The notes: generated by a model not told the origin, from the sequence alone. 64,000 bases of DNA from an uncultured Pseudomonadota bacterium (GCA_902785275.1 CACZYB010000005.1:2213-66212); one strand, 5' to 3'; positions 1 to 47,878 are shown, numbered from the stretch's first letter. Made by a program: numbers and translations.

Positions 1-592
1 GTTTCATTTCAGGATACAATGTATTAACTGTTTTAATTAATATATCAAAATCCTTTACATTTACTCCATCAATATTTTTTTCATAGTCTTCTCTAGCACT
101 TTTTATATTCATATATTTAAATTTTGCAGGTAATGTTAAGACCCCTTTATATTTTAATAAAATTTTTCTTATATTTTCTAAAGTTAACCCACAAAATTCT
201 AAATAATTTTTATCTGGATAAACAATACCTTTTGAAGAATAAGTTTTTTCACCTATACTCAATAAATTGAAATTTTTTCTTTTTAAAATAAAATGTCTTC
301 TATATTGCATTAATCCTATATAATCAGGATTTCCTAACTTATCGTAATTTTTCCAAGCCCAATATAAAGCTGTTAACTCTGAATAATATCTATTTTTACA
401 AGAAATATTATCCCCTGTATTATCTTTTAACATATTATCAAAAAAAGAATCATTTTTATTTATTATGCCATCTTTTGATATATTTTTAGCATCAACCCCA
501 ACTTCTATTGGATAAATAAAATCAGAATCTAATAAAAATGCAGGTTTATGATATGCTACTAAAATTTTTACACTAGGTTGTTTTTTATTCAT
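1..592 (-). CDS. DUF4422-family glycosyltransferase (putative galactofuranosyltransferase), C-terminus cut by the window edge
   Basis: Minus-strand ORF starts at ATG 592-590 (MNKKQPSVKILVAYHKP...). It is a paralog of the 1712-2590 protein (shared GDNIS..NxxYxELTALYW motif). It lies 14 bp downstream of glf in the same operon. Confidence 0.5.
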   Translation of the reverse strand, partial: MNKKQPSVKILVAYHKPAFLLDSDFIYPIEVGVDAKNISKDGIINKNDSFFDNMLKDNTGDNISCKNRYYSELTALYWAWKNYDKLGNPDYIGLMQYRRHFILKRKNFNLLSIGEKTYSSKGIVYPDKNYLEFCGLTLENIRKILLKYKGVLTLPAKFKYMNIKSAREDYEKNIDGVNVKDFDILIKTVNTLYPEMK

Positions 593-606
593 TTTATTTA
601 TCCTCT

Positions 607-1710
607 TTATATTTCCATATTTAATACACGTTCGATTGCTTTATCCATATCGTAATATTTGTAATCCCCAAGACGGCCAAGGAACATTAATTTAGGATCT
701 TTCTTTGCTTCATCCAAATATTTTTGGTATAGAGCTAAATTTTCTTCATTTATTATTGGATAATAACGTTCATTTTTTCCACGAACAAATGCTTCTGGAT
801 ACTCAAATGAAACAATTGTTTTATCCGATTTATCATCCAAGAAATATTTATACTCTCCAATTCTTGTGAATGTATAATTTTCTGGATAATTGATTACAGA
901 ATTTGATTGATAATATTCTTTATCATATTTTTGAAAATCAAGATTGATACTTCTGTATGGAAGTTCACCAAACTTGTAATCAAAATACTCATCTATCGCA
1001 CCAGTATAATAAAGTTTTTCGTATTCAATACTGTTTTTTATATCATTAAATGATGTATTTAGTTTTACTTTTATTAATGGATGATCAAGCATTTTTTCCA
1101 TCATTTTTGTATATCCATTTAAAGGAATACCCTGATATTTGTTTTGGAAATATCTATCGTCACGACTTACATATACAGGAACACGACCTGTAACCAATGG
1201 ATCCAAATCTTCAGGTTTTACGCCCCATTGTTTTAATGTGTAATCAAGGAAAATTCTTTTATAAATATAATCAGCAAGGAAATTTAAATCCTTATCATCA
1301 CACTTTCTTAATTCAAGAATAGGAACCTTTTTACCAAAACCAAATTTTTCAACCAATTTTTGTTGTAATTTTTCAGAAAGACAACTTGGGAAAACCATTT
1401 CCATAGAATTAATATTAAATGGAACCGGAATTTCAATTCCTTCGATAACAGCCTTAACCTTGTGCATATATGGGTGCCACTTTGTAAATTTTGAAAGGAA
1501 ATTCCAAACATCTTTGTTATCAGTATGAAAAATATGTGTACCATACTTATGAACACAAATATTTTCATCATAATAATCATAACAATTTCCACCAATATGA
1601 TCTTTATTATCAATAATTAAAACTTCTTCATTTTTTTCCTCTGCAATACGACGAGCAAGAGTTATACCTGTTATACCACAACCGACAATAATGTTTTTTA
1701 CTTTATCCAT
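607..1710 (-). CDS. glf: UDP-galactopyranose mutase
   Basis: N-terminal FAD Rossmann motif IIVGCGITGITLARR, and full-length similarity to Glf flavoenzymes (367 aa). Confidence 0.85.
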   Translation of the reverse strand: MDKVKNIIVGCGITGITLARRIAEEKNEEVLIIDNKDHIGGNCYDYYDENICVHKYGTHIFHTDNKDVWNFLSKFTKWHPYMHKVKAVIEGIEIPVPFNINSMEMVFPSCLSEKLQQKLVEKFGFGKKVPILELRKCDDKDLNFLADYIYKRIFLDYTLKQWGVKPEDLDPLVTGRVPVYVSRDDRYFQNKYQGIPLNGYTKMMEKMLDHPLIKVKLNTSFNDIKNSIEYEKLYYTGAIDEYFDYKFGELPYRSINLDFQKYDKEYYQSNSVINYPENYTFTRIGEYKYFLDDKSDKTIVSFEYPEAFVRGKNERYYPIINEENLALYQKYLDEAKKDPKLMFLGRLGDYKYYDMDKAIERVLNMEI

Positions 1711-1711
1711 T

Positions 1712-2590
1712 TTATGACCAATACTCCTTTCTATAGCCTAAAAACGTTAATATTTTTCTTTTTATATTTTTTAATTTAAACTTTAAATATTGTTTTAAAT
1801 TTGAATTAATCCAAATAACTGGACAATATTTAATTTTTATATCCGTTGTTTGTAAAAGATATTCCGTATATATGTTGAATAATCTTTCACCAAGATATCC
1901 ATATACTCTTTTTTGAATTACATCTCGTTTTTTAACATCAGACTGAATCTTTTTTTCTACTTCAAACAATATACTAAAAAGCCAATTACAATACCCATCT
2001 ATTATTTGTTTCTTACCAATGAACATATTATACGAATGCATATAGTTTCCATTTAAAACAGCATCAACAGTACTTGACATTTCCGGATATTTATTTTTGA
2101 TAATTGATACAGCTAAATCTAAATCAGAAATTATATGACTTCGTTTATAATGATTATAAAGAGACAATTTTAACCCTGTTTTTTTAGGTAGAATTAAATC
2201 ATAATTTTTCATCAATTTATTAATATTATCTTTATCTATACAATATTTTCTAAGAAAATTTTTTGAAAATTTATGCAACAAAATTTCTTTTGAAGCTACT
2301 TTTTCTCTTAAATCAAAAAATCTTCTATAATGAAACAACCCAACTATATTTGACTTTACATTTTTATACATCCAATACAATGCTGTTAGTTCGTTATAGT
2401 TTTGATTTTTACTTGAAATATTATCACCTATGTCATCACCAATAATATTTAAATCCAAAGAAGAAAGAGCTTTTCCAACTTGAATAGGAAAAAGGATGTC
2501 ATTTTTAAAAAAATCAGAATTTTTGTGATAACAAATAAAAATATTTGTACCTTTAAAATTATTTACTAATTTTTTAAAAATTTTCCCCAT
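1712..2590 (-). CDS. DUF4422-family glycosyltransferase, usually partnered with glf (putative Galf transferase)
   Basis: 292 aa, motif IGDDIGDNISSKNQNYNELTALYWMYKN. Gaps to neighbours are 1-2 bp (operon). Confidence 0.55.
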   Translation of the reverse strand: MGKIFKKLVNNFKGTNIFICYHKNSDFFKNDILFPIQVGKALSSLDLNIIGDDIGDNISSKNQNYNELTALYWMYKNVKSNIVGLFHYRRFFDLREKVASKEILLHKFSKNFLRKYCIDKDNINKLMKNYDLILPKKTGLKLSLYNHYKRSHIISDLDLAVSIIKNKYPEMSSTVDAVLNGNYMHSYNMFIGKKQIIDGYCNWLFSILFEVEKKIQSDVKKRDVIQKRVYGYLGERLFNIYTEYLLQTTDIKIKYCPVIWINSNLKQYLKFKLKNIKRKILTFLGYRKEYWS

Positions 2591-2592
2591 AT

Positions 2593-3159
2593 TTATTTTA
2601 CTTTCAACTTTCTTCTTTTTATAAACATGTGCAAAGTGCCACTATTGACACCAAGCATTTTTGCAATCTCTGTAACTTTTACTCCACAAGAAAGTAATTG
2701 TTTTATTTCTGATTTTTTCTCATCAAGACCAGACTTCCCTGTACCAACAGGTCTTCCCCTAGATTTACCTTGTTTTAACAAATTCTTTTGTATCTGAGCA
2801 TTTTTAAGAGAAAAAATACCCTTATAAACTTTTAAACAAATATCGATATTTCCCATAAAGGAGGATTGTGAAACAGTATCAATTTCTAACTTTTCCTTTA
2901 CAGAATAAATTTTTAATTTACGTTCAGAAAATATCTTTAAAGCCAACATAATATCTTCAAATCTTGAACCGAGTATAGAAACATCGGAAATCATAATGTC
3001 ATTCTTTTTTACGGGACAAGATAAAATATTTTTATCAGTTGGAATTTTTTCAAATTTTATATCAGAAATCCCTAATTTTGTAGCATATCTCAAAATCATC
3101 TCTTTTTGCTCAGCAAGAGATGTGTATATGTTCGATTCTGTAATATACCCAGTAATCAT
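2593..3159 (-). CDS. Small serine-recombinase-family protein (resolvase/invertase fold) with degenerate catalytic motifs plus a C-terminal HTH
   Basis: N-terminus MITGYITESN aligns to GYxRVST but has T at the R8 position. The SRLGR box is replaced by SILGSR. The C-terminal HTH (TEIAKMLGVNSGTLHMFIKRR) is retained. Confidence 0.6.
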   Translation of the reverse strand: MITGYITESNIYTSLAEQKEMILRYATKLGISDIKFEKIPTDKNILSCPVKKNDIMISDVSILGSRFEDIMLALKIFSERKLKIYSVKEKLEIDTVSQSSFMGNIDICLKVYKGIFSLKNAQIQKNLLKQGKSRGRPVGTGKSGLDEKKSEIKQLLSCGVKVTEIAKMLGVNSGTLHMFIKRRKLKVK

Positions 3160-3213
3160 ACTCTTCTAAAACCTTTGTTTTCTGTAACTTTATAGAGATT
3201 TTCTCTCTACATA

Positions 3214-3346
3214 AACCAACGTCTATTTGATACATTTGTTTCAATATAATCCTAATAGGCAGAAAAGTCAATAAAATTCTAGGAATATAATCAAAAAATC
3301 AAGTACTTTCAATACACTCATAACACTATATCAAATAGACGTTGGT
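3214..3346. promoter_or_regulatory. Candidate invertible DNA switch: inverted repeats 3214-3232 and 3329-3346 (18/19 match) flank a roughly 96-bp segment. A third partial copy of the site lies at 3368-3382
   Basis: AACCAACGTCTATTTGATA is seen directly, and TATCAAATAGACGTTGGTC is its reverse complement. The core TAGACGTTGGTCTA is itself palindromic (TAGAC-4-GTCTA). The segment sits between two divergent serine recombinase genes. Confidence 0.5.
3243..3270 (-). promoter_or_regulatory. Sigma70-like promoter inside the invertible segment, currently pointing leftward into the invertase-GT-glf-GT operon
   Basis: Minus-strand reading gives TTGACT (3270-3265), a 17-nt spacer, then TATATT (3248-3243). 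Confidence 0.4.
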
Positions 3347-3466
3347 CTAGATGATATAGTATAACATCTAGACGTTGGTCTAGTTGATATAGTCGATTTT
3401 CATAGCAAAACACTGGCAAATTCTGCTAAATCTTATATCCGTAAAACACAAAAATAGGAGTAAAAA

Positions 3467-4054
3467 ATGATTTATGGATATACCAGAGTTTCAACTGAAC
3501 TACAAAACATCGAAAACCAACATCACGAAATTTTAACATTTGCAAATATGTATAAAATTAAAATAAATCAATGGGTTGATGAAGTAATTTCTTCAAGAAA
3601 ATCATTAAAGGAAAGACGACTTGGTAAACTCTTAAAACATCTCAAAAAAGGAGATATTTTGATTGCTTCGGAACTTTCAAGGCTTGGTAGAAATTTACTT
3701 GAAGTTATGGGAATTTTACAAAGCTGTTTAGAAAAAGGTTGCCAAATTTGGACCTTAAAAGAAAACTATAAACTTGGTGCGGACATTCAATCAAAAGTCC
3801 TTGCATTTGCTTTTTCATTGGCTGCAGAAATCGAACGACAACTTATTTCTCAACGCACAAAAGAGTCACTAAAAAGGGTAAAAGATGAAGGCAAACACCT
3901 TGGCAGACCATTTGGTCATTCATACAAAAAGCTTGCATCTAAACATGATAAAATCAAAGAATTATTGGAAAAAGATGTTTCCAAGACAGAGATTGCAAAA
4001 CTATTAAACTGCTCTTGGATAACTCTTCATCGGTATATACAAAAAGCGTTGTAA
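3467..4054 (+). CDS. Serine recombinase, Hin/Gin/resolvase family (canonical active-site motifs)
   Basis: MIYGYTRVSTELQ, DEVISSRK, GDILIASELSRLGRN, and a C-terminal HTH. There is an RBS, AGGAG, 8 nt upstream. Confidence 0.8.
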   Translation: MIYGYTRVSTELQNIENQHHEILTFANMYKIKINQWVDEVISSRKSLKERRLGKLLKHLKKGDILIASELSRLGRNLLEVMGILQSCLEKGCQIWTLKENYKLGADIQSKVLAFAFSLAAEIERQLISQRTKESLKRVKDEGKHLGRPFGHSYKKLASKHDKIKELLEKDVSKTEIAKLLNCSWITLHRYIQKAL

Positions 4055-4204
4055 AATAACCTTGTCCCCACATGGATACAAGATTGCGACATCATAAAAA
4101 AAGCAAACTCCTAAAACAGTTTTTGCAATATTTTTAAATTGTTATGAGAAGTTTTCACAAAATCCGAATTCTACATTTATATAAATGAAAATGTAGGAGA
4201 AAAA

Positions 4205-4363
4205 ATGACAAGTAGTTTTAATCAATTAAAAGAAATAATTAAATCTCAATATCCCGAGAATTCTTTTTCTGATTTTGAATTAGAAGAAGCAACAAAAAGG
4301 ATTATTCAATTTTTTACCATTGGAGCAAAAATGGTAGAATCTTGCGAAAAAAAATTAAAATAA
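4205..4363 (+). CDS. Hypothetical 52-aa protein (island cargo)
   Basis: AGGAGA RBS sits 6 nt upstream of the ATG. It is not in the ORF track (below 60 aa). No recognisable domain. Confidence 0.25.
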   Translation: MTSSFNQLKEIIKSQYPENSFSDFELEEATKRIIQFFTIGAKMVESCEKKLK

Positions 4364-4421
4364 TCGCTTACAAATCATTTTATTCCCGACATAATATTAA
4401 TTAAAAAAAGGGAGTTTAAAA

Positions 4422-5963
4422 ATGTCATATTCTTATTTAAAGAAAAATATAAAAACACAACCTATGCAAGCTGTATTATTTACAAGAGTTTCATCTAGAG
4501 AACAAGAAAGAGGAGACTCTATTGATGCTCAAATGAAGACGGTTAAAGATTATTGTATTCAACACAATATACCTATAATAAAGGAATATAAAATAACTGA
4601 ATCATCATCACATGGTGAAAGAAAAAAGTTTTATGAAATGATTAAATTCATAAAACAACAAAGTGGTAAAATATTAATTGTTGCAAACACTATTGACCGA
4701 ATTCAAAGAAGATTTAAGGAATATATATATTTAGACGAATTACGTCTTGAAAACAAAATTGAAATGTATTTTGTAAGAGAACATTTAACTATAAATTCAA
4801 AATCAAATAGTTATGAAATAGGAACTTGGACACAGGGTGTAATGTGGGCTCAACAATATGTTTTACAATCAAGTGATAATATTAAACGAGCAAATGAAGA
4901 AAGTCGTAATAAAGGAAGATGGTTACACATGGCTCCAATGGGTTATATGAATTATAGAGATGAAACAGGTTTAGCTATGGTTAAAATAGACCCAATAAAA
5001 GGACCACTTGTTAAAAGAGTTTTGGAAGAATATTCTACTGGAAACTATACATTATCAAGGCTTTTAGTATTTGCAAATAATATAGGATTAACTACAAGAC
5101 AAGGTAAAAAACTCAATTTAAAGACATTAGATAATATGATAAGAAATCCTTTTTATTACGGTATTATGAGAACTATTGATGTATTACGACCTCATACATG
5201 TGGAAATTTAATAAGTAAAGACTTATACGATAAAAACCAAGAAATATTGTCTGGTAAATCTAGGCAATTTTTAACTAAACAAGCAGATACATTCTTATTT
5301 AATGGATTATGCTTTTGTGCAACATGTGGTTGTATGATAAGTCAGGAAAGACATACAAAGAAAAATGGTAAGGCTTATACATATTTAAGATGTTGCCATC
5401 ATAAAGGTAATTGTAATCAACCAATAGTTAATGAAGAAGTAATACTTGACCAGATAAAAACAGAAGTTTTTGATAAATTTAAAGTAAATAACAAAATGCT
5501 TGAATTATTAAAGGCAGAAGTTAAGAAAAACATTGAAAAGGAATATTCTGAAACATTACTTATGAAAACACAGATACAAAAGAAGTTAGACGAAGTAGTA
5601 TATCAAAAGAGTAGGTGTGTTGATTTACTTATAAATAATACGATAGATAAGAAAGTTTATGATATGAAAATGAATGAACTAAACGATAGGGAAGTAAGTA
5701 TGAACTACAAACTAGCTTCTTTTGATACAGTAAATAGTGAGATAAATCAAATAGTTAATGGGGTTATAGATTTCGCAAACAATATGGGTAAATACTTTGA
5801 AAGTTCGGATTTTTCTTTAAAAAAGGAAATTTTACAAATTTTAATTCCGAACTCTTTATTGGATTCAAAAAAGTTAGTATTATCAATAACTAAACCATTC
5901 GATGCTATGCTGAAAAGTAAGGATTATGTAAAGTGGTGCGCCATAGGGGAGTCGAACCTCTAA
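4422..5963 (+). CDS. Large serine recombinase (integrase/transposase type)
   Basis: 513 aa. N-terminal resolvase catalytic domain (AVLFTRVSSREQ), a recombinase domain, then a Cys-rich zinc-ribbon region (CFCATCGC...CCHHKGNC) and a coiled-coil tail. Its 3' end overlaps the tRNA-Arg 3' end. Confidence 0.85.
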   Translation: MSYSYLKKNIKTQPMQAVLFTRVSSREQERGDSIDAQMKTVKDYCIQHNIPIIKEYKITESSSHGERKKFYEMIKFIKQQSGKILIVANTIDRIQRRFKEYIYLDELRLENKIEMYFVREHLTINSKSNSYEIGTWTQGVMWAQQYVLQSSDNIKRANEESRNKGRWLHMAPMGYMNYRDETGLAMVKIDPIKGPLVKRVLEEYSTGNYTLSRLLVFANNIGLTTRQGKKLNLKTLDNMIRNPFYYGIMRTIDVLRPHTCGNLISKDLYDKNQEILSGKSRQFLTKQADTFLFNGLCFCATCGCMISQERHTKKNGKAYTYLRCCHHKGNCNQPIVNEEVILDQIKTEVFDKFKVNNKMLELLKAEVKKNIEKEYSETLLMKTQIQKKLDEVVYQKSRCVDLLINNTIDKKVYDMKMNELNDREVSMNYKLASFDTVNSEINQIVNGVIDFANNMGKYFESSDFSLKKEILQILIPNSLLDSKKLVLSITKPFDAMLKSKDYVKWCAIGESNL

Positions 5964-6012
5964 CCTTCTGATCCGTAGTCAGATACTCTATCCAATTGAG
6001 CTAATGGCGCAA
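5936..6012 (-). tRNA. tRNA-Arg (anticodon ACG)
   Basis: The reverse complement reads GCGCCATTAGCTCAATTGGATAGAGTATCTGACTACGGATCAGAAGGTTAGAGGTTCGACTCCCCTATGGCGCACCA. It has a 7-bp acceptor stem, a GTTCGACTCC T-arm and an anticodon loop CTACGGA. Confidence 0.8.
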
Positions 6013-6136: not shown

Positions 6137-7162
6137 GTGTATAGACAAAATAGACGAATTGGAGGAGGTAAATCCCTTGGAAATTTAGGTAAATTCTTGC
6201 TTTCAGTGGCTTTGATGTCTTCTATTATAATAGGTGAGGGTGCCATAGCAGGAAGAAAAAAATCTTCAAATACTTCTCAATCAAGTAAAAGGTCAGGGTC
6301 CAGTCAAAAATCAAACTCTGTATCAAATAAATCCAGCAAAAGATCCGGTTCAAGTCAAAAGGCAACTTCTGTAAGTTCAACAAAAAGAGCAAATGTAACC
6401 CAAAGGGTTTCTGCTAGAATAAAGAAAATCAGTACCCCGGAAAATAACACAGAAAATTCATCGGAAAATACTTCTAAAACTGCATGCACATATGCTTGTC
6501 CTGTTTGTAAATCTAGTGCATCTGGTGCTAAAAATAGTTTTTCCAAAAAAGATGTGGAGAGTCTTCCTCTTTGTACTAATGGTTTTGAATCAGAATCTTA
6601 TGGTGTGAGTTTCGGAAGTGTTTTCAAAAATAAAACTTTTACATTTAATGAAGATAATTCTTATAAGCTTTCCGATTTAATAAATCTTAATAAAATACCA
6701 GATAATGCATCTTTGAATATTAGATATTCTGTTTGTGGAATGAAATTACTTACAGAAACTGAATTAAATGAACAAAAAAAACATCTTGCTCAAGGAGGTA
6801 GCTTTATGGTTGGCAGGTCTGATTTTATTACCTATGCCTTTGAACAAAATGATAGTAATTTTACCTCATATCATGTTTGTAGAGATATAAAAAGAAGTTC
6901 TGATATTACGATAAAAAAATCAGATTTAGATAAATATTATTTCTATGTTGATGGGGGTGATCCAAGAATGAGTGCGACAGCTTGTCCTAAAGGAAATAAT
7001 GGTATTAGAGGATACTTTTTTTACAATGGAGATGATGATAAACTTATTGATGAATTTGATAATTGGGTAGAGAAAAATACAAAGATTGTAAAAGATGAAG
7101 ATGGAGAAGATGTTGAATTAAGCCCAAATATTGATTTTTCATACGTAAAGTTTGTTAAATAA
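6137..7162 (+). CDS. Hypothetical secreted or membrane-anchored Cys- and Ser-rich protein with tandem SSKRSGSSQK repeats
   Basis: GGAGAGGAG RBS lies 6 nt before GTG 6137 (the longest ORF starts at 6074). There is an N-terminal hydrophobic anchor (LGKFLLSVALMSSIIIG), a low-complexity S/K repeat block and multiple Cys pairs (CTYACPVC, CPKG). Confidence 0.5.
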   Translation: MYRQNRRIGGGKSLGNLGKFLLSVALMSSIIIGEGAIAGRKKSSNTSQSSKRSGSSQKSNSVSNKSSKRSGSSQKATSVSSTKRANVTQRVSARIKKISTPENNTENSSENTSKTACTYACPVCKSSASGAKNSFSKKDVESLPLCTNGFESESYGVSFGSVFKNKTFTFNEDNSYKLSDLINLNKIPDNASLNIRYSVCGMKLLTETELNEQKKHLAQGGSFMVGRSDFITYAFEQNDSNFTSYHVCRDIKRSSDITIKKSDLDKYYFYVDGGDPRMSATACPKGNNGIRGYFFYNGDDDKLIDEFDNWVEKNTKIVKDEDGEDVELSPNIDFSYVKFVK

Positions 7163-8175: not shown

Positions 8176-9117
8176 CTATTTGTTGTGCATAAGCATTGTA
8201 AGTACGTTTGCCAAAGTTTCTTTTAAATCTTTTCTGTGAACAACGATATCAACCATTCCTTGATCCTTTAAATATTCCGCAGTCTGGAATTCAGGAGGAA
8301 GTTTTTGTTTAATTGTTTGTTCAATAACACGTTTTCCAGCAAAACCAATAAGTGCTCCTTTTTCTGCAATATGAATATCTCCAAGCATTGCAAATGATGC
8401 GGAAACACCACCCATTGTTGGGTTTGCAAATATTACGATATAAGGAAGCCCTGCATCGCGAACTTTGTTTATTGCCATAGTTGTTCTTGCCATTTGCATA
8501 AGTGATAACATACTTTCTTGCATTCTTGCACCACCAGAAGCAGGAATTGCAACCAAAGCAGCATTCTTTTTTACAGCCAATTCAGAAGCTTTGATAATTG
8601 CTTCACCAACGTATGTTCCCATACTTCCACCCATAAATTCAAAATTAAAGGCAAAAATAACAGTATCTTGACCACCAACTTTACCATATGCAACAGCAAT
8701 AGCATCATCAGCCTTAGTTGCACTTCTATATTGAGAAAGTCTGTCTTTATACTTTTTTAAATCCTTAAAATTCAATGGATCTTCTTTTACTTTGTTAAGT
8801 TCAACTTTTGTATATTTGCCATCATCAAAAAGACTTTCAAATCTGTCATCAATTTGTAAAAAAAGATGATAGTCACATTTTGTGCAAACATTAAGATGAT
8901 TATGCAAATCTTTTCTATACATCAATGTCCCGCATTTAGGGCATGGAAGCCACATATTTTCAGGAACATCCTTTATTTTTGAAAACATTGTTTTTATTTT
9001 TGGTCGTAAGACACTATTAAGCCAATTCAATTTAAAGCTCCTTTTTCTTTTTAAATGATCTTGTTTTGTTATAAACTTTGTTTGCCAATACCCCAGCAAT
9101 AAATGAAATAAATGCAA
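8176..9117 (-). CDS. accD: Acetyl-CoA carboxylase carboxyltransferase subunit beta. The start is uncertain, probably internal near 9030-8988
   Basis: N-terminal zinc ribbon CPKCGTLMY...CTKCDYH plus a carboxyltransferase domain. The longest ORF overlaps the upstream small membrane gene. Confidence 0.85.
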   Translation of the reverse strand: MHLFHLLLGYWQTKFITKQDHLKRKRSFKLNWLNSVLRPKIKTMFSKIKDVPENMWLPCPKCGTLMYRKDLHNHLNVCTKCDYHLFLQIDDRFESLFDDGKYTKVELNKVKEDPLNFKDLKKYKDRLSQYRSATKADDAIAVAYGKVGGQDTVIFAFNFEFMGGSMGTYVGEAIIKASELAVKKNAALVAIPASGGARMQESMLSLMQMARTTMAINKVRDAGLPYIVIFANPTMGGVSASFAMLGDIHIAEKGALIGFAGKRVIEQTIKQKLPPEFQTAEYLKDQGMVDIVVHRKDLKETLANVLTMLMHNK

Positions 9118-9268
9118 GTATTATTGTATAAAGGTATACAGGCATTTCAATTCCCATTTTTATAGGAAAAACATTAAGTACTACAGGATTCTTATTTTCT
9201 GTTGAAAACAAGAATATTAAGAAAAATAGACCCCCGAGGAAAATCCAGTTTATTAAATATTTTATCAT
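9032..9268 (-). CDS. Small two-TM inner membrane protein (LapA/DUF1049-like)
   Basis: 78 aa with two hydrophobic helices and a basic C-terminus. It sits immediately upstream of accD. Confidence 0.35.
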   Translation of the reverse strand: MIKYLINWIFLGGLFFLIFLFSTENKNPVVLNVFPIKMGIEMPVYLYTIILAFISFIAGVLANKVYNKTRSFKKKKEL

Positions 9269-9278
9269 TTTTTTCTTT

Positions 9279-9563
9279 TTATATCTTGTTATTTATCTTT
9301 TCTGCAAGAAGTTTACCAGCTTTAAACTTTACAGAAACTCTTTCTGGAAGGTTGATTTTTGCGCCACCTTTAGGGTTGCTTGCCATTTTAGGAGCAAGTT
9401 TTTTAGGAGAGAATACCCCAAAACCCCTAAGTTCAATTCTGTGGCCATCAGCCAAAGATGATGAAATTTTATCAGTTAATATATCAACAATCTTTTCAAT
9501 ATCACGAATTAAAAGATTACCTTTTTTTTGATATATAAGTTTTATAATATCACTTCTAGTCAT
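9279..9563 (-). CDS. Nucleoid-associated protein of the HU/IHF family (IHF-like)
   Basis: 94 aa, RIELRGFGVF and the beta-arm motif SVKFKAGK. Confidence 0.85.
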   Translation of the reverse strand: MTRSDIIKLIYQKKGNLLIRDIEKIVDILTDKISSSLADGHRIELRGFGVFSPKKLAPKMASNPKGGAKINLPERVSVKFKAGKLLAEKINNKI

Positions 9564-9633
9564 TTTTTTTCCTAATCTAAGGTTTGTTCATGCAATATTA
9601 AAGCAATTATTTTTAGTTTTTTCAAGTACTTTA

Positions 9634-10722
9634 TTAACCCATCGCACTTTGAACCTGATTTTGCATATCAAATACGCCTAAAAGAACCCATGCAATAACA
9701 CCAGAAACAAGCAAAAGAGCAAAGGAATTCAAAATACCGGCTTCCTTTTTTATATTTGCAATACTTGATTCAAGATATTCTGTTGCAACACCGTTCAAAG
9801 CTTCTTCAAAATTATCAAGTTCTGAATAAATTTCCAAATCACCAATAAGTTCATCTTCTGGGAAATGCATATTACTCTTTTTCAATGCAGTTCCAAGGTT
9901 ATCACCGTTTTTAATAAACATTAATGCTTTATCAATTCTTTCTTTCAAGTAAGGGTTTGCATTCTGACGAAGAGATTGCATAGATCTTGCAATAGGTGTT
10001 CCAGATTCGACCAATGCAGCCAAACTCATAAGCCAAGACACGCCACTGAACATTCTGTAAAGAGACCAAGGTGGCATTTTATCAAATGTTACACGTAGTG
10101 GACCTGTGAAGTTTGAAAATGAAAAATAAATTGCACCTATAACTCCCGCCAAAGCAAGAGGAAATGTCCACCAATAAACTCTAACAAATCCTGATAATGC
10201 CACCAAACTTTTTGCACTTCCTGTCCATTGGGCATTTTTTGCAAATTCCAAAAGAGGAGGAACCATATATATACCAACACCAACAACGATAACCATACTA
10301 AGTATCATCATCATAACAGGGTAAGTAACCGCACTAACCAATGGTTGTATAATTCTGTTTGAACCTTCGGAAACCTTAATAACGTTAATCAACGCTTTTT
10401 CCAACTTTGACACATCACCAACAGAAAGCATCAATTTTTCACGCATAGGAGCCCAACCTTCAATAGCTGATGAGAAAGGAAGACCTTTTTCCAATTCTTT
10501 TGACCAAGCAGCAACAGCAATAGCCATAGGTTCATCAACATTCTGGCCATCTTTTGACTCAATCATCCATATACGATCAAGTGCATCCATCAATGTAAAT
10601 CTGTTTCTTAAAAGCGCAGCCAATTTATAATAAATTTGAAGACGTTTTTCATTGTTCATCAACACCATAATTTGTGAAGCTTTTAATAACAATTCATTCT
10701 TTGGAATCCTTTTTTCAGCCAT
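9634..10722 (-). CDS. Type II secretion / type IV pilus inner-membrane platform protein (GspF/PilC family; TcpE/PilR-like)
   Basis: 362 aa, polytopic, GspF-type fold. It is adjacent to the ATPase. Confidence 0.75.
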   Translation of the reverse strand: MAEKRIPKNELLLKASQIMVLMNNEKRLQIYYKLAALLRNRFTLMDALDRIWMIESKDGQNVDEPMAIAVAAWSKELEKGLPFSSAIEGWAPMREKLMLSVGDVSKLEKALINVIKVSEGSNRIIQPLVSAVTYPVMMMILSMVIVVGVGIYMVPPLLEFAKNAQWTGSAKSLVALSGFVRVYWWTFPLALAGVIGAIYFSFSNFTGPLRVTFDKMPPWSLYRMFSGVSWLMSLAALVESGTPIARSMQSLRQNANPYLKERIDKALMFIKNGDNLGTALKKSNMHFPEDELIGDLEIYSELDNFEEALNGVATEYLESSIANIKKEAGILNSFALLLVSGVIAWVLLGVFDMQNQVQSAMG

Positions 10723-10733
10723 AAATCAACCTC

Positions 10734-12347
10734 CTAGTAAACAGCATCGGTATCAAGCATACCGCACCATCTTTCTACTTCATCAACCGCAATTATACCT
10801 CTAAGCATTTTTCCAATAGCATCTTCCTTAAGAGTTCTTCCACTAAGTTCATTAGTCCAATAATGAACTGCCTCACCTTTACTTCCAGAAACAAGTTTTT
10901 CCAAAAACTTTGCATCAGGAATAATAATTTCTGCAGCAACAATACGACCAACAATACCTTTTTTATTACAAAATGGACAACCAGGTCCCTTTATATAGGA
11001 TTGCTCTATACCATATTTACCCAAAGCTCTTTCCAATCTTGCATATGCAGGATGTTCAGGATGATCCTTGATTGGTTGACGACATTTAGGGCAAAGCTTT
11101 TTGAAAAGTCGTTGAGATAACAATCCACGGATAAGTTCAGGATCCTTTAATTTAAATGCATCAATTCCCATATCCAAAAGTCTGTTAACAATAGCAGGTG
11201 CAGAGTTAGCGTGAAGTGTTGACCAAACATTGTGTCCAGAAAGAGCTGCCTTAAAGGTCAACTCTGCAGAAGAAAGGGTTCTGATTTCTCCGACCATAAT
11301 TGCATCAGGGTCAGAACGAAGAGATGCAGCCAAAGCAAGGTTAAACGCATTTTCCTTTTCTTCTTCTGTTGTCGCATTGGTAACAGGCATTTGTCTTGCA
11401 CCTGGAATAGGGTATTCAGGAGGATCTTCCACTGTTATAAGATTAAGTTCATAATTCTTTTCCTTAAGCATCTTAATCATAACACGCTGTAATGTTGTTG
11501 ATTTACCAGAACCGGTAGGACCAGCGATTATACAAAGTCCTGTTGGAAAAGAACGCATTCTTAAAAGCTTATCATCTTCGTAATCCGAAAATCCTAATTC
11601 TTTTAGGTTATCTGCAGAAGATGTTGAAGAATTTGCATACAAAAGTCGCATAACAAGGTATCTTGTACCGAATGCAATAGGGTTAAACTGAAGTCGAATA
11701 GAAAGCACGTTTTCAGGCAAATATAAATCCTTTTCACCACGAAGAGGTGTACTACCTAATTTCTGTCCGGCCTGGAATTCATTCTGTGCATAGTTTGAAT
11801 CTGAAATATCGGCAGATGCGAAAACAGAACGAACGAAAGCTTCTCCCCAATTTTTATCATATTCAAGAATTGTTTGCATACTACCTGCAATTCTGAACAT
11901 AACAGTAGTATGGTCCGCAACAACAACGTGAATATCGGAAACCCTTTGTTCAGAAGCGCGATAAATAATATCAACGAAATCCTTCTGCATTTGGTTGTTC
12001 GACATTGCGTCTTCTTTTGATACAGTTGAAGTATCTGTTTTTATCGCAGTCGAATAAATGGTATTTAACAAACTCATCGCAACATAAGTTGGTCTGTTAA
12101 TAACACCACCTTTCTTTCTAACCAAAGACTGGAAGCTTAAAACTCTACCATCAAATTTATGAGTGTTAGATACAAGAAATGTTCCATCAGAAAACAATGC
12201 AAGCAAACTTTGTGTATCTGTACCAACAGGAAATTTTCCGTTTGGACCAGATTCTAACTTATTATTATTCGCAAAAAGTTTTGCAGCAGCATCCTTAGGA
12301 TTCATACCTTCATAAGGATTTTCTTGCTCTAATACTTCATCACTCAT
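10734..12347 (-). CDS. Type II/IV secretion assembly ATPase (GspE/PilB family; TcpT/PilQ-like)
   Basis: Walker A GPTGSGKSTT, Asp/His boxes and a C-terminal tetracysteine CPKC...CPFC. Confidence 0.85.
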   Translation of the reverse strand: MSDEVLEQENPYEGMNPKDAAAKLFANNNKLESGPNGKFPVGTDTQSLLALFSDGTFLVSNTHKFDGRVLSFQSLVRKKGGVINRPTYVAMSLLNTIYSTAIKTDTSTVSKEDAMSNNQMQKDFVDIIYRASEQRVSDIHVVVADHTTVMFRIAGSMQTILEYDKNWGEAFVRSVFASADISDSNYAQNEFQAGQKLGSTPLRGEKDLYLPENVLSIRLQFNPIAFGTRYLVMRLLYANSSTSSADNLKELGFSDYEDDKLLRMRSFPTGLCIIAGPTGSGKSTTLQRVMIKMLKEKNYELNLITVEDPPEYPIPGARQMPVTNATTEEEKENAFNLALAASLRSDPDAIMVGEIRTLSSAELTFKAALSGHNVWSTLHANSAPAIVNRLLDMGIDAFKLKDPELIRGLLSQRLFKKLCPKCRQPIKDHPEHPAYARLERALGKYGIEQSYIKGPGCPFCNKKGIVGRIVAAEIIIPDAKFLEKLVSGSKGEAVHYWTNELSGRTLKEDAIGKMLRGIIAVDEVERWCGMLDTDAVY

Positions 12348-12357
12348 TTTTCATACC

Positions 12358-13278
12358 TTAGTTAAGATTCATAACTTTTATCTTACTACCATTCTTCAAA
12401 AGAACACTTGTTCCTCTGATATCTTCAACAACCCATTGATCAATAACAGAACCTTTCTTAACTTTGAAAGTAGTTTTCTTTTCTGTGTTTTCAACGTTTG
12501 CAACCAAGTTACCACCAGCACCAATAATAGATTTAACAGTATACTTTTCTTCAAAAGGAGTTTCTTCCTTTTCTTTTTGAGCAATACCAGCACCCAAACC
12601 ATTACTTTGGATAGATTTACCTGTTGATAAGCTCATAAGAGTAGTTAAAGCCTTAACATCTTCTGGATTTGTTAAATCAGCATTATTTATCTTTTCAAGG
12701 AGCTTTTTGTTTATTTCTTCTTCTTGATTCTTTTTCTTCTTTTCTTCAGCATCCTTTTCATCTTGTTGCTTTTGCTTCTTTATTTCTTCAGCCAACTTTC
12801 TTTCTTGTTCTTGTTGTTTAATCTTTCTCTGTCTTGCATCTTCTTCAGCACCAGCAGCAATTTTTTTCTTTTCAGCCTTTTGTTTTTCCAAATCAAGCTT
12901 AAGTTTTCCTTGCTCAATTTTAAGTTTCATAAGAGCATTTTCTCTTTCAATATTTGAAATCTGTTGGAAAGTATTTGCAGTAATATCATCTAACTTATAC
13001 ATTCCATCAGGATCATCCAAACCTTTTTCATTTTCATAAAGTTCATCTGAACCATATCCTTCTTCAAATTCTTCATCTGAAATTTCTGGCTCTTCTGAAG
13101 TTTCTTCACTAGCTTCATCATTTTCTTCTGCGCCTGCATCATCGCTATTATCTTCTTCTTCGATATATTCTTCTTCATCAGATTCGCTTTGAGCAAAAAC
13201 CTTTGTTGAATTATTAAAAGTAAATGCAAAAGAAAGCATAATAAGCAATAATAATAATTTATTTGAATTTTGTTTCAT
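12358..13278 (-). CDS. Periplasmic secretin-interacting protein (PilP/GspC-like C-terminal beta domain). Signal peptide, acidic low-complexity region and a coiled coil
   Basis: The signal peptide, D/E-rich stretch, KQK coiled coil and C-terminal IIGAGGNLVANVEN...GSVIDQWVVEDIRGTSVLL resemble a PilP/GspC HR domain. Confidence 0.4.
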   Translation of the reverse strand: MKQNSNKLLLLLIMLSFAFTFNNSTKVFAQSESDEEEYIEEEDNSDDAGAEENDEASEETSEEPEISDEEFEEGYGSDELYENEKGLDDPDGMYKLDDITANTFQQISNIERENALMKLKIEQGKLKLDLEKQKAEKKKIAAGAEEDARQRKIKQQEQERKLAEEIKKQKQQDEKDAEEKKKKNQEEEINKKLLEKINNADLTNPEDVKALTTLMSLSTGKSIQSNGLGAGIAQKEKEETPFEEKYTVKSIIGAGGNLVANVENTEKKTTFKVKKGSVIDQWVVEDIRGTSVLLKNGSKIKVMNLN

Positions 13279-13319
13279 TTTTCCCTCTCCTTACAAAATT
13301 TTACTTTGTTATACTAACA

Positions 13320-14804
13320 CTATTTTTTTTCATTCGTAGTTCCAACAGGTGCCGGAGCAACATTTGTACCATTTGCACCGCCAGTAGGTGTTTGTGCCGC
13401 AACTGGCGTATTTGTTACTGGAACGTTTATCCCAGTTCCAGCAGTATTTCCTGCATTCTGCTGTTCAGTAGTTGCAGGTTTATTTTTTTCTTCTTCAGCT
13501 TTTTTCTTTGCTTCTTCATCTTTTTTAATTTGTTCAGGTGTAAGTTCATAAACTTTACCAGCATATTCCCAATAATGCTTTTTTTCATTCCAAACGATAG
13601 AGTCTATTTCAACACCGTTCACATCTTTCAAAAGCTTTACCCAGCTTAAAGGAAGTCTGTAAGCAACATCTGTGAATTTAAAACTTGTGTATGGATAATT
13701 TCCTGAATATGAAGGATTTTTTGGATCCTTTACCACAGTAGTCTTATTTTCAAGCTTTAATCCAGAAATCTTCAAAGAATGAAATATACCGTTCAATTTC
13801 TTTTGAATTTCCATCTTTTGTAAATTTGGCTTTGAAGATATATGCTTCATAGAAGGTATAGGTAATATACCAAGTATAGTATTATAAGCACTATCACTTG
13901 CCGAAAGTTTCATATTTTTAGATAGAGCGCCAAATTTTTGTGCTTCAAAAATCCAACCGGCACTACCATAAGTTCTCTTCCAAACAGAAGATAATTGCTT
14001 TTCCTTACATGTCGAATCTTGCAAATTCCAACCAGGAACAGTTGCAGTAGAATTAACAATAAGAACAGTACACTTTTTGGCAAAATCCTCTGGATCAACC
14101 AACATCTCCCATGGAGCAGGAGGTGGAGGAGGTGGAGGTGGAGGAGGCATAGATTTTCTTATCTGTTCCAATCTCTTCTGTTCTAAAAGCTTTCTTCTAA
14201 GTTCAGCCTTTTCCTTTTGTTTTGATTGATATTGCCATGCAACAAAACCAACCAAAGCAAGTATTAAAATGTTTTTTGTAAGATTACTATCAAGCTTTCT
14301 CAAATCTATGGCTTGACCACGAGCAAGCAAGTCTTCTGCAGACATTTCTGTGGTTTCATCAATTCCCCAGCTTGCAGGAGCAATCTTATATCCCCAATCT
14401 GGGATAGAAAGCATAGATTCGAATGCTTCTTTTGCATCATTTTCATCAGTGTAAATAGTATCTTCTTCGGAAAGAATAAGGTTATTTCTGATAGTTATAA
14501 ACCACCAACCTTCTTTAACCTTAAATACACATATTGCAGATGATTTGTCTCTAAGTGCATTAGCTATACCAGAAGCACCTGATGGCATACCAGCCTTTTG
14601 ACCATAGGATGTGTAACCCAAACCGTATTGAGTAGCAGCACCCTTTTTCAAACAGTAAAGATTTGCATTAGTAACAACAGTCTGAATAGTTGCCTTAATT
14701 TCTTTAAGGTAATTTTTTTCATCCTGCACAGGCTGCCAGAACAAACCTACCGCATAGGTTTTACCAGCAACTTCAATGGTTTTTATTTCTTTACTTTTAG
14801 CCAA
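13320..14804 (-). CDS. Bitopic inner-membrane assembly protein (PilO of the R64 thin pilus / GspL-like architecture) with a Pro11 tract
   Basis: A cytoplasmic domain of about 170 aa, a single TM (ILILALVGFVAWQY), a coiled coil, PPPPPPPPPPP, and a periplasmic domain with a T/N/G-rich tail. Confidence 0.35.
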   Translation of the reverse strand: MAKSKEIKTIEVAGKTYAVGLFWQPVQDEKNYLKEIKATIQTVVTNANLYCLKKGAATQYGLGYTSYGQKAGMPSGASGIANALRDKSSAICVFKVKEGWWFITIRNNLILSEEDTIYTDENDAKEAFESMLSIPDWGYKIAPASWGIDETTEMSAEDLLARGQAIDLRKLDSNLTKNILILALVGFVAWQYQSKQKEKAELRRKLLEQKRLEQIRKSMPPPPPPPPPPAPWEMLVDPEDFAKKCTVLIVNSTATVPGWNLQDSTCKEKQLSSVWKRTYGSAGWIFEAQKFGALSKNMKLSASDSAYNTILGILPIPSMKHISSKPNLQKMEIQKKLNGIFHSLKISGLKLENKTTVVKDPKNPSYSGNYPYTSFKFTDVAYRLPLSWVKLLKDVNGVEIDSIVWNEKKHYWEYAGKVYELTPEQIKKDEEAKKKAEEEKNKPATTEQQNAGNTAGTGINVPVTNTPVAAQTPTGGANGTNVAPAPVGTTNEKK

Positions 14805-14827
14805 TTTTACCCCTCAATAAAATTTTT

Positions 14828-17078: not shown

Positions 17079-17177
17079 AACTCTCCACCTTTTCTATAAA
17101 TTTTTTTTCTTTCCTAGCTATAAGACTATATTTAAAATTTTGTTTTTGCAACAAAAATAATAAAAAGTTAAATATTT

Positions 17178-18260: not shown

Positions 18261-18319
18261 AGAAATTATTTCCTTTCCGTAATATAGTTATAGCATAAAT
18301 CATAAAAGGGAAAAGTCAA

Positions 18320-47869: not shown

Positions 47870-47878
47870 GTGGTTTAA

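What the first reader, a model, noticed from the sequence alone, without database searches (positions are those of the whole stretch)
1..6012. Accessory island ending at tRNA-Arg: the large serine recombinase gene overlaps the tRNA 3' end, and the cargo is a glf galactofuranose module
The 513-aa large serine recombinase (resolvase domain plus zinc-ribbon and coiled-coil integrase architecture) ends at 5963, inside the 3' end of the minus-strand tRNA-Arg(ACG) (5936-6012). That is the classic signature of an element integrated into a tRNA gene. Everything to the left is cargo: two Hin-like recombinases, a 52-aa ORF, and an operon of UDP-galactopyranose mutase plus two DUF4422 transferases (putative Galf transferases). 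The island continues past the window start. Galf is absent from animal hosts and is a frequent surface antigen, so a mobile, switchable Galf module may be host-interaction-relevant.
Basis: partly seen in the sequence, partly recalled or inferred. Interest (0 to 1): 0.7.

Follow-up and report, generated by a model that had tools for sequence, protein, structure and literature searches.

The report
Serine-integrase tRNA island, switchable Galf operon
The left 6 kb of the window is the integrase end of a probable mobile island: its large serine integrase belongs to a widespread, barely described group that inserts at the 3' tips of tRNA and tmRNA genes, and the island carries a flip-switch promoter in front of a galactofuranose surface-sugar operon.

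Summary
A 513-aa large serine recombinase (LSR, 4422-5963, +) ends 30 nt inside the 3' part of the minus-strand tRNA-Arg(ACG) (5934-6010). To its left lie a 52-aa ORF, a small serine recombinase, a degenerate copy of it, and a glf/DUF4422 operon that runs off the window.

The overlap is a property of the whole LSR clade. In 50 of 76 evaluable homologous loci the ORF ends antisense in a tRNA or tmRNA 3' end, always in the same frame. Two loci show junctions that place the crossover in the last 9-15 nt of the RNA gene.

The "Hin-like" recombinase at 3467-4054 is an Mpi-family master invertase. The intergenic region 3212-3393 is an invertible promoter: the homologous promoter points the other way in three related lineages. 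The second "Hin-like" gene is a catalytically degenerate Mpi paralogue.

The order mpi, small ORF, LSR is kept at different tRNAs (Arg, Lys), so the switch probably travels with the integrase. The island's left end and an empty tRNA-Arg site were not found, because the contig ends 2.25 kb beyond the window.

It is a new variant of known kinds, and the tRNA-targeting LSR clade is the more notable part.

The parts
1..591 (-). 5' part of a second DUF4422 (GT111-type, putative Galf transferase) gene. It is 336 aa on the parent contig. The operon continues leftwards with a GT4 glycosyltransferase and a sugar nucleotidyltransferase.
   Evidence: PF14393 7.7e-56 for the full ORF in L001
607..1710 (-). 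glf, UDP-galactopyranose mutase (367 aa)
   Evidence: Pfam GLF 2.4e-73; TIGR00031 437.6 bits against a cutoff of 303.75
1712..2590 (-). DUF4422 / GT111-type putative galactofuranosyltransferase (292 aa)
   Evidence: Pfam PF14393 1.5e-73; DUF4422 is the GT111 Galf-transferase fold per PMC12269835
2593..3159 (-). 188-aa degenerate Mpi paralogue with an HTH, first gene of the operon. The catalytic Arg equivalents are lost (GYTRVS becomes GYITES; SRLGR becomes SILGS).
   Evidence: NCBIfam NF009949 E=1e-12 over the full length; alignment A4; only 5 clusters known
3212..3232 (-). Left inverted repeat (site A) of the invertible promoter. The core AGACGTTGGT lies on the minus strand.
   Evidence: 3 matches in the window against 0.00 expected
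3233..3328 (-). Invertible segment carrying the promoter TTGACT-17-TATATT (3271 to 3243, minus strand). In this assembly it points to the 188-aa/glf operon (operon ON).
   Evidence: promoter scan; homologous promoter reverse-complemented relative to mpi in L115, L123, L125
3325..3393 (+). Right inverted repeat, tandemly duplicated here (site B 3325-3358, site C 3360-3393). Each copy is a 34-bp pseudo-palindrome around TAGAC-GTTG-GTCTA.
   Evidence: relatives have a single right repeat
3467..4054 (+). mpi: Mpi-family master DNA invertase (small serine recombinase, 195 aa)
   Evidence: NCBIfam NF009949 266.6 bits (cutoff 272), full length; more than 120 clusters at 78-99% identity, two of them named Mpi family by NCBI; dN/dS 0.04-0.10
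4205..4363 (+). 52-aa ORF, a conserved companion of this LSR clade (candidate directionality factor or regulator)
   Evidence: homologous small ORFs directly upstream of the LSR in L019, L020/21, L022/L035, L023, L120; no Pfam, NCBIfam or PHROG hit
4422..5963 (+). Large serine recombinase (integrase), 513 aa. Its last 10 codons are antisense tRNA.
   Evidence: phrog_95 integrase 7e-58; dN/dS 0.16 against the L020 homologue
5934..6010 (-). tRNA-Arg(ACG), the attR junction. By analogy with L064 and Legionella, the crossover is predicted within about 5934-5948 (CCA and acceptor 3' strand). The T stem carries an A·C mismatch.
   Evidence: junction analogies

Best explanation
Positions 1-5963, plus at least 2.25 kb beyond the window start, are the integrase-proximal end of an integrated mobile element.

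The integrase. It is a large serine recombinase of a clade that uses the 3' tip of tRNA and tmRNA genes as attB. The int gene sits flush against attP, so after integration its reading frame runs across the crossover into the antisense of the tRNA. TGG, the antisense of CCA, is read as Trp. The crossover lies in the last ~9-15 nt of the RNA gene (CCA and acceptor 3' strand). attP carries the same few bases, so the tRNA stays intact. A conserved small ORF (52 aa here) accompanies the integrase and may set directionality.

The payload. The element carries a self-contained phase-variation cassette. An Mpi-family small serine invertase flips a ~100-bp promoter segment bounded by inverted repeats (3212-3232 against 3329-3349/3362-3382). 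In the orientation assembled here, the promoter drives the operon: degenerate Mpi paralogue, GT111, Glf, GT111, GT4, nucleotidyltransferase. That operon makes a galactofuranose-containing surface glycan. In the other orientation the promoter points at mpi.

Shown: the overlap, the clade-wide tRNA/tmRNA association, two loci with element junctions, the two promoter orientations across lineages, and the mpi-LSR linkage at different tRNAs.

Inferred: that this particular copy is still mobile, where its left end is, that Mpi performs the flip, the glycan product, and the role of the small ORF.
For: (1) Overlap and intact LSR. The gene is under purifying selection (dN/dS 0.16).

(2) Closer homologues in other genomes also end antisense in a tRNA. 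P0002 (83% identical) ends in tRNA-Arg(ACG) with a different host flank. P0005 and P0008 (55% and 53%) end in tRNA-Met. P0013 (39%) ends in tRNA-Glu.

(3) Protein tails of the form W..(D/E)SN are shared by most homologues down to 33% identity.

(4) In 50 of 76 evaluable loci from metagenome and viral scans, ARAGORN finds a minus-strand tRNA or tmRNA overlapping the ORF end: Leu, Gln, Arg, Lys, Asn, Ala, Met, Glu, and tmRNA in 3. Rfam confirms tmRNA in L055, L064 and L088. GenBank and RefSeq records behave the same way, including Legionella adelaidensis at tRNA-Asn.

(5) Junctions. In L064, attL is the host terminator hairpin followed by TTGGAGGTGGAGAGA, and attR has TTGGAGGTGGGGAGA, 6 kb apart. 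In Legionella, a 105-nt remnant of an LSR 3' end finishes with AAGTGGCTCCCC and diverges exactly there, 12.4 kb left of the tRNA-Asn junction. The stretch between holds defence cargo.

(6) Composition: GC is 0.269, below every equal-size window in the rest of the window. Synteny with relatives stops at the accA stop codon.

(7) Mpi identity. The repeat motif occurs 3 times against 0.00 expected.

(8) Promoter orientation. TTGACTTTT-17-TAxAAT is on the minus strand in the window and L120, and on the plus strand in L115, L123 and L125, relative to a fixed mpi. Pairwise scores fall into two orientation classes. Example: window against L123 scores 44 reverse-complemented and 16 in the same orientation; shuffled versions of the window segment, measured against L115, scored 15.3 ± 2.4.

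(9) Assemblies from other samples break at this switch: the ERR3275099 contig starts at the first bases of mpi, and L119 diverges from L120 at the site core.

(10) Linkage. mpi, small ORF and LSR are adjacent at tRNA-Arg (window, L119/120, L020) and at tRNA-Lys (L125). L125 also carries the DUF3768 + ~85-aa module seen in the LSR elements L019 and L023, to the left of mpi. dS for mpi (0.31) and for the LSR (0.28) between the window and L119/120 is similar.

(11) DUF4422 is the GT111 Galf-transferase fold, next to glf as in Kingella pamAB.
Against: - No left junction and no empty tRNA-Arg site were found. The contig ends 6.7 kb left of the LSR. No copy of the tRNA 3' end occurs in the window or in L001.
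- A conspecific contig from another sample is identical across the tRNA and 67 nt into the LSR, so it also carries at least the LSR's 3' end and gives no empty-site allele.
- Relatives at 84-94% accA identity have accA followed by typA, with no tRNA-Arg there. The tRNA-Arg is therefore not in a conserved position, and a rearrangement must be assumed.
- Mpi orthologues (86-90% identical) occur without any LSR in other lineages, next to housekeeping-type genes. mpi could therefore be chromosomal.
- No replication, transfer or phage genes are seen in the 8.2 kb available.
- The LSR homologue in L125 is frameshifted, which shows that such copies can be stranded.
- Both promoter orientations were seen only between lineages, not within one population.
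- Mpi scores 5 bits below NCBIfam's curated cutoff.
- About one third of the distant LSR loci have no tRNA at the ORF end.
Confidence: 0.6

Rival explanations
1. Only the small module 4055/4205-5963 (52-aa ORF plus LSR) is the integrated element, or the stump of one. mpi, its switch and the glf operon would then be ordinary, variable chromosomal surface-glycan DNA that happened to lie next to tRNA-Arg.
For: - Mpi is conserved at 78-99% identity in more than 120 clusters and occurs without an LSR in L115-118 and L123/124.
- There are no mobility genes between the LSR and the contig end.
- Polysaccharide loci are usually low in GC whether or not they are mobile.
- Elements of this family can be small: 6 kb in L064.
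Against: - The order mpi, small ORF, LSR is kept at two different tRNA targets (Arg and Lys) and with different host flanks. This is hard to explain if mpi were simply a neighbour of one tRNA.
- In L125 the backbone genes of the LSR elements (DUF3768 module) lie beyond mpi.
- There is no tRNA-like block and no LSR remnant in 4055-4204.
Confidence: 0.2
2. Nothing here is currently mobile. The region is a fixed, lineage-specific variable locus produced by rearrangement at the accA/typA hotspot. The LSR would be a relic or a domesticated recombinase whose overlap with the tRNA is only historical.
For: - The same arrangement is seen in every sample that holds this species.
- No empty site was found.
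- Relatives show a variable spot between accA and typA, with 0-1.2 kb of unrelated ORFs.
- The L125 homologue is a pseudogene.
Against: - The LSR is intact, of full length, and under purifying selection.
- Its clade shows recent insertions of near-identical elements into different host backgrounds.
- GC is an outlier.
Confidence: 0.12
3. The three sites at 3212-3393 are a res-type resolution and auto-repression site for a resolvase (as between tnpA and tnpR in Tn3), not an invertible promoter.
For: - There are three pseudo-palindromic sites just upstream of the recombinase gene. B and C are 33 bp apart and A is 121 bp away.
- A segment of ~100 bp is short for Hin-type inversion.
Against: - Relatives have only two sites, in inverted orientation.
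- The sequence between them is reverse-complemented between lineages while both flanks keep their orientation.
- The best family match is the Mpi invertase.
Confidence: 0.06

Closest known systems
Genomic islands and prophages integrated at tRNA/tmRNA 3' ends by tyrosine integrases (P4-type islands, NBU1 at tRNA-Leu, SaPI-like and ICE examples)
   Same: The integrase gene is at the element edge next to the RNA gene. The target is the 3' end of a tRNA or tmRNA. The RNA gene is restored by element sequence. Tandem accretion occurs at the same tRNA (Legionella locus). The cargo consists of surface and defence genes.
   Different: The enzyme is a serine integrase, not a tyrosine one. The shared attP/attB block is only ~9-15 nt. 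The int ORF itself crosses the junction on the opposite strand.
Characterised large serine integrases (PhiC31, Bxb1, A118/LI, TP901-1, SCCmec Ccr)
   Same: Same domain order: catalytic domain, recombinase domain, zinc ribbon with inserted coiled coil. The int gene is adjacent to attP. Integration is site-specific.
   Different: The known ones target protein-coding genes or their ends. There is no sequence-level match to any solved LSR. A large LSR survey does not mention tRNA at all (PMC10083194). Only a statistical hint exists: 14 of 297 S-Int elements at t(m)RNA genes, described as 'not reported previously' (PMC7192596).
Bacteroides fragilis Mpi and the invertible promoters of capsular polysaccharide loci
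   Same: A small serine invertase of the same NCBIfam family (266.6 bits). Short inverted repeats flank a promoter in front of a polysaccharide operon. The organisms are gut commensals. From memory only, the B. fragilis repeat core ARACGTWCGT resembles AGACGTTGGT; this was not verifiable in the held literature.
   Different: The host is an alphaproteobacterial gut lineage, not Bacteroidales. mpi sits directly beside the switch, so the promoter alternately faces the operon or mpi. The segment is ~100 bp. The cassette appears to ride on an LSR element. The first operon gene is a degenerate Mpi paralogue rather than UpxY/UpxZ.
Salmonella T1 antigen locus (PMC11294581)
   Same: A Galf-containing surface glycan whose operon is switched by inversion of an upstream promoter.
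   Different: The T1 switch uses a FimB-like tyrosine recombinase with 9-bp repeats, and the locus is chromosomal.
Kingella kingae pamABC and Klebsiella O2a WbbM galactan genes
   Same: A DUF4422/GT111 Galf transferase encoded next to UDP-galactopyranose mutase.
   Different: Those loci are not reported as phase-variable or mobile. Here two GT111 genes flank glf, followed by a GT4 and a nucleotidyltransferase.

Membership tests
Large serine recombinase (serine integrase) | N-terminal resolvase-type catalytic domain with the nucleophilic Ser | tested here: met
   PF00239 1.1e-12 at residues 17-129. R22-V23-S24 are invariant in the 18-sequence alignment.
Large serine recombinase (serine integrase) | Recombinase domain plus zinc-ribbon domain with an inserted coiled coil | tested here: met
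   PF07508 1.7e-8 and PF13408 3.4e-7. The AF2 model has helices 357-459 between zinc-ribbon strands. Foldseek gives full-length matches to serine integrase complexes, E = 1e-19.
Large serine recombinase (serine integrase) | Catalyses attP x attB integration with a 2-bp crossover | not testable with these tools
   Only junction sequences in relatives are available. The central dinucleotide is not resolved.
tRNA-integrated mobile island | Integrase gene at the edge, adjacent to an intact tRNA whose 3' end is the junction | tested here: met
   the same arrangement in 50 of 76 homologous loci
tRNA-integrated mobile island | Second junction carrying a copy of the tRNA 3' end at the far side | tested here: inconclusive
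   Not present in the 8.2 kb available, because the contig ends. Present in the relatives L064 and Legionella.
tRNA-integrated mobile island | Empty site in related strains | tested here: inconclusive
   Relatives lack the island, but they also lack tRNA-Arg at this locus. The conspecific contig L025 is identical 67 nt into the LSR.
Mpi-family master DNA invertase | Sequence membership (NCBIfam NF009949 equivalog) | tested here: inconclusive
   266.6 bits against the curated cutoff of 272, with a full-length match. Homologues 87% and 82% identical to it are named Mpi family by NCBI.
Mpi-family master DNA invertase | Inverted repeats flanking a promoter that is found in both orientations | tested here: met
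   Repeats. Two orientation classes across five lineages. Not shown within a single population.
Mpi-family master DNA invertase | Acts on many promoters genome-wide ('master') | tested here: not met
   The only sites in this 64-kb window are the three at 3212-3393. The rest of the genome was not available, so this is a weak test.
Galf glycan biosynthesis module | UDP-galactopyranose mutase plus a Galf transferase | tested here: met
   TIGR00031 above its cutoff. Two DUF4422/GT111 genes. Transferase specificity is inferred from the family.
Tn3/gamma-delta type res site | Three subsites used for resolution between direct repeats | tested here: not met
   Relatives have two inverted sites with an inverted intervening promoter.

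The most novel reading that the evidence does not exclude
This LSR represents a large, essentially undescribed family of serine integrases dedicated to the 3' tips of tRNA and tmRNA genes. It is found from gut Alphaproteobacteria and gut-metagenome elements at tRNA-Leu (hosts not identified) to Legionella.

The gene is built so that the reading frame crosses the crossover point. The integrated form ends after a few codons of antisense tRNA, and the excised form carries a different, longer tail encoded by the other end of the element. This could act as a built-in sensor of integration state.

In gut Alphaproteobacteria the family mobilises a complete phase-variation cassette (Mpi invertase, invertible promoter and a surface-structure operon), here one for a Galf glycan. 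The cassette includes a catalytically dead Mpi paralogue that may feed back on the switch.
Probability: 0.3. Interest if true: 0.78.

Novelty: new variant of a known kind. Interest (0 to 1): 0.62.

Why it matters
- Serine integrases are the main tools for large-cargo genome engineering, and their natural targets have been catalogued almost only among protein-coding genes. A widespread clade whose natural attB is the conserved 3' end of tRNA and tmRNA genes widens the known target range. It also gives testable attB/attP pairs, including one in a cultured Legionella strain.
- It bears on an open question raised by others: why tRNA genes seemed to be reserved for tyrosine integrases.
- For gut ecology, it suggests that a ready-made on/off switch for a non-mammalian sugar antigen (Galf) can move between genomes as one unit. 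That is relevant to immune and phage evasion by little-studied gut Alphaproteobacteria.

Tried and rejected
1. Searched for a copy of the tRNA-Arg 3' end in the window and on the parent contig, and for equivalent repeats within 10 kb of about 30 homologous loci. Only L064 gave one. The other elements are probably longer than 10 kb or share shorter blocks.

2. Looked for an empty site through conspecific contigs carrying the identical accA. The only alternative contig stops 67 nt inside the LSR and is identical up to there.

3. Tried to find the left boundary from identity drops between the window and L119/L120. There is no sharp boundary; mpi and the LSR have diverged to a similar extent.

4. 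Considered a crossover in the T loop or anticodon loop, prompted by the T-stem A·C mismatch and by tRNA-Ser half-genes in L098/L099. L098's right flank looks like host DNA rather than element DNA, and the L064 and Legionella junctions place the crossover in the acceptor 3' strand.

5. Compared near-identical tRNA-Leu elements to find their ends. They are mosaic and longer than the fetched flanks.

6. Tested whether the 341-aa ORF next to the tRNA matches the ORF at the same position in relative L002. It does not.

7. Looked for un-integrated copies in phage and plasmid records. All the hits examined were integrated at tRNAs.

8. Could not verify the remembered B. fragilis repeat consensus in the held papers.

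9. No Pfam, NCBIfam or PHROG match for the 52-aa ORF.

Full report
**The observation**

- The LSR ORF is 4422-5963 (513 aa).
- tRNA-Arg(ACG) is 5934-6010 on the minus strand (ARAGORN; Rfam 62.6 bits).
- The last ten codons of the LSR (K W C A I G E S N L stop) are the antisense of the tRNA's CCA end, acceptor 3' strand and T arm.
- Pfam finds Resolvase, Recombinase and Zn_ribbon_recom in the LSR, GLF in 607-1710 and DUF4422 in 1712-2590. A second DUF4422 gene starts at 591 and runs off the window.
- An AlphaFold model (pLDDT 82) has the long helical insertion expected of a serine integrase. It matches full-length serine integrase structures at E = 1e-19.
- GC of 1-5933 is 0.269. That is lower than any equal-size window in the other 57 kb (0.326 ± 0.017, minimum 0.283).

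**Where the window comes from**

The window is identical to an ENA metagenome contig of 73,430 nt. That contig extends only 2254 nt further left. It adds the rest of the DUF4422 gene, a GT4 glycosyltransferase and a partial sugar nucleotidyltransferase, then stops.

By accA, the nearest genomes are low-GC MAGs, several labelled Alphaproteobacteria and at least one from an animal gut. Their synteny with the window is continuous rightwards from accA and stops exactly at the accA stop codon, window position 7237. To the left of accA these relatives have 0-1.2 kb of unrelated ORFs and then typA. There is no tRNA there. So the island is absent from relatives, but so is the tRNA-Arg at this position. 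An 'empty tRNA-Arg site' was therefore not observed.

**The overlap is a clade property**

This is the main result.
- Look-ups of LSR homologues gave the same arrangement in other genomes. A homologue 83% identical ends 30 nt inside tRNA-Arg(ACG), with a different host flank. Homologues at 55% and 53% end in tRNA-Met. A homologue at 39% ends in tRNA-Glu.
- In a protein alignment, most of 18 homologues, down to 33% identity, end with W..(D/E)SN. This is the antisense CCA read as Trp, followed by the antisense T loop, in one fixed frame.
- A metagenome scan returned 80 loci out of at least 538 relatives, and a viral-contig scan returned 9.
- Among the 76 loci where the ORF end is inside the contig, ARAGORN finds a minus-strand tRNA or tmRNA overlapping the end in 50: Leu 21, Gln 9, Arg 6, Lys 3, Asn 3, tmRNA 3, Ala 2, and others.
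- Rfam confirms tmRNA targets, and finds weaker tRNAs in some of the remaining loci.
- One sub-clade, with the tail KWKDIAMENLEEFE, has no tRNA.
- GenBank and RefSeq records behave the same way, including Legionella adelaidensis NCTC12735 at tRNA-Asn.

**Junction anatomy**

Two loci show where the element joins the host.
- L064 (tmRNA target). A terminator hairpin followed by TTGGAGGTGGAGAGA lies 6 kb left of the tmRNA end, where the sequence reads TTGGAGGTGGGGAGA. This is host terminator plus the original tmRNA tip, then element DNA.
- Legionella. A 105-nt remnant of an LSR 3' end (95% identical) lies 12.4 kb left of the tRNA-Asn junction. It ends with AAGTGGCTCCCC and then diverges. At the tRNA the same bases continue into the tRNA. 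The 12.4 kb between them carries a DEAD-box helicase, an Eco57I-type methylase, AbiE, a tyrosine recombinase and the LSR. This is what tandem accretion of a second element into the junction of a first would leave.

In both cases the shared block is the last 9-15 nt of the RNA gene, so the crossover lies in the CCA and acceptor 3' strand.

It follows that the last few codons of the integrated int gene are host-encoded. The excised form would read into the other element end, which gives a longer tail in both reconstructed cases (inference).

**How new this is**

- A 2020 survey states that use of a t(m)RNA gene by a serine integrase 'has not been reported previously'. It found 14 of 297 such cases and asked for experimental proof (PMC7192596).
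- The large LSR catalogue of 2022 analyses only protein-coding targets and never mentions tRNA (PMC10083194).
- Other searches of the held literature found nothing more. I cannot exclude reports outside that library.

**The 'Hin-like' genes and the switch**

- The 195-aa protein (3467-4054) matches NCBIfam's Mpi master invertase model over its full length, at 266.6 bits against a cutoff of 272.
- It has more than 120 homologous clusters at 78-99% identity, mostly 195 aa long, two of them named Mpi family by NCBI. dN/dS is 0.04-0.10.
- The region between it and the divergent operon holds three copies of a pseudo-palindromic site with core TAGAC-GTTG-GTCTA. One is inverted (3212-3232) and two are tandem (3325-3358, 3360-3393). 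The motif occurs 3 times against 0.00 expected by chance.
- The ~100 nt between the inverted copies contain TTGACT-17-TATATT on the minus strand, pointing at the operon.
- Four other lineages have the same repeats and the same promoter upstream of mpi. In L115, L123 and L125 the promoter is on the plus strand, facing mpi. In the window and L120 it is on the minus strand. The flank between the right repeat and mpi keeps its orientation.
- All pairwise comparisons fall into these two classes. Example: window against L123 scores 44 reverse-complemented and 16 in the same orientation; shuffled versions of the window segment, measured against L115, scored 15.3 ± 2.4.
- Contigs from other samples break at this region.

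This is the pattern of an invertible promoter, as known for Bacteroides capsule loci. Both orientations within one population were not shown.

**The operon**

- The first gene (188 aa) is a full-length but degenerate Mpi paralogue. The catalytic arginines are replaced in all five known family members, while the helix-turn-helix is kept.
- It is followed by GT111 (DUF4422), glf, GT111, GT4 and a nucleotidyltransferase.
- DUF4422 is the GT111 Galf-transferase fold of WbbM and PamA, and pamA sits next to the mutase gene pamB in Kingella (PMC12269835).
- A phase-variable Galf glycan has a precedent in the Salmonella T1 antigen, which uses a tyrosine recombinase (PMC11294581).

**Is the switch cargo of the LSR element?**

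For:
- The order mpi, small ORF, LSR, tRNA recurs in L119/L120 (Mpi 99% identical). It recurs in L020, whose contig begins with the C-terminus of an Mpi homologue, at tRNA-Arg but with another host flank. It recurs in L125, where a 66%-identical but frameshifted LSR ends in tRNA-Lys.
- In L125 the DUF3768 + ~85-aa gene pair that is also present in the LSR elements L019 and L023 lies beyond mpi.
- Linkage across different tRNA targets argues that mpi moves with the integrase.

Against:
- Mpi orthologues occur without an LSR in L115-118 and L123/124.
- No transfer or replication genes are visible here.
- The left end is missing.

I put about 0.6 on the whole island model, and about 0.2 on a minimal or stump LSR module lying beside chromosomal mpi and glf.

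**The small ORF**

The 52-aa ORF has homologues directly upstream of the LSR in most of the close relatives examined, with the shared motif LYPE..L(T/S)D(Y/F)EL.E....LIQFFT(I/L)GAK. It has no database match. It is best read as part of the integration module. A role in directionality or regulation is a guess.

**Verdict**

The finding is real and mostly read correctly, with three corrections:
1. The signature is unusual, not classic, for a serine integrase.
2. The small recombinase is the switch enzyme, and its 'twin' is catalytically dead.
3. The island's extent and present mobility remain unproven.

The most valuable outcome is the clade-wide tRNA/tmRNA targeting by a large serine integrase family, with the crossover region defined at two loci.

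Noticed in passing
window 2593-3159 (-): The first gene of the switched operon is a 188-aa Mpi paralogue. It keeps the aligned Ser and the HTH but has lost the catalytic Arg residues. Only five clusters of this protein exist in 5.8 billion proteins, all with the same losses. It may bind the switch sites and feed back on inversion.
   Followed up: partly
window 3325-3393: The right inverted repeat of the switch is tandemly duplicated here (33-nt period, 88% identical). Relatives have one copy. Two alternative inversion partners are therefore possible.
   Followed up: partly
window 5934-6010 (-): The T stem of tRNA-Arg(ACG) has an A·C mismatch (AGAGG against CCCCT). The tRNA-Arg next to the 83%-identical LSR in L020/L021 has the matching T. 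A contig from another sample shows the same mismatch. This could be a scar of element-supplied sequence or a plain mutation.
   Followed up: partly
window 6137-7162 (+) and the accA end at 7237: A 341-aa Ser-rich ORF with no family match fills the space between tRNA-Arg and accA. Relatives carry unrelated ORFs of 0-1.2 kb at the same accA/typA spot, so this position is a small hotspot of variable genes.
   Followed up: partly
window about 9100-20000 (-): To the right of accD and HU lies a type IV pilus / type II secretion-like cluster (T2SSF, T2SSE, PilO-like, secretin, TcpQ, porin). It is conserved in the relatives.
   Followed up: no
L131 (Legionella adelaidensis NZ_LR134433.1) 35399-35503 and 47836-47940: A 105-nt remnant of an LSR 3' end next to IS3 transposase sequence, 12.4 kb upstream of an intact LSR at tRNA-Asn. 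This looks like tandem accretion of two serine-integrase elements. The record is labelled a plasmid but carries rho, uvrB and other chromosomal genes.
   Followed up: partly
L098 6171-6260 and L099 5939-6030: Two LSR homologues are followed by only the 3' half of a tRNA-Ser-like sequence (up to the anticodon loop), then unrelated DNA. L098's right flank holds a Moco riboswitch and what look like host genes. The origin of these half-tRNAs is unexplained.
   Followed up: partly
L053, L054, L057, L059, L063, L065, L078: A sub-clade of the LSR family (about 33% identical) ends with KWKDIAMENLEEFE and has no tRNA at the ORF end. It presumably uses another kind of target.
   Followed up: no
L125 8089-9645: The LSR next to mpi in this lineage is split by a frameshift (164 aa + 349 aa). 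The identical 349-aa product occurs in three samples, so this is a stranded copy at tRNA-Lys.
   Followed up: partly
L115 10906-10915: A further Mpi-type repeat core (AGACGTTCGT) lies downstream of mpi in L115 and L116, in front of a HAD/cytidylyltransferase operon. It is missing at that place in L117. This may be a second switch in that species.
   Followed up: no
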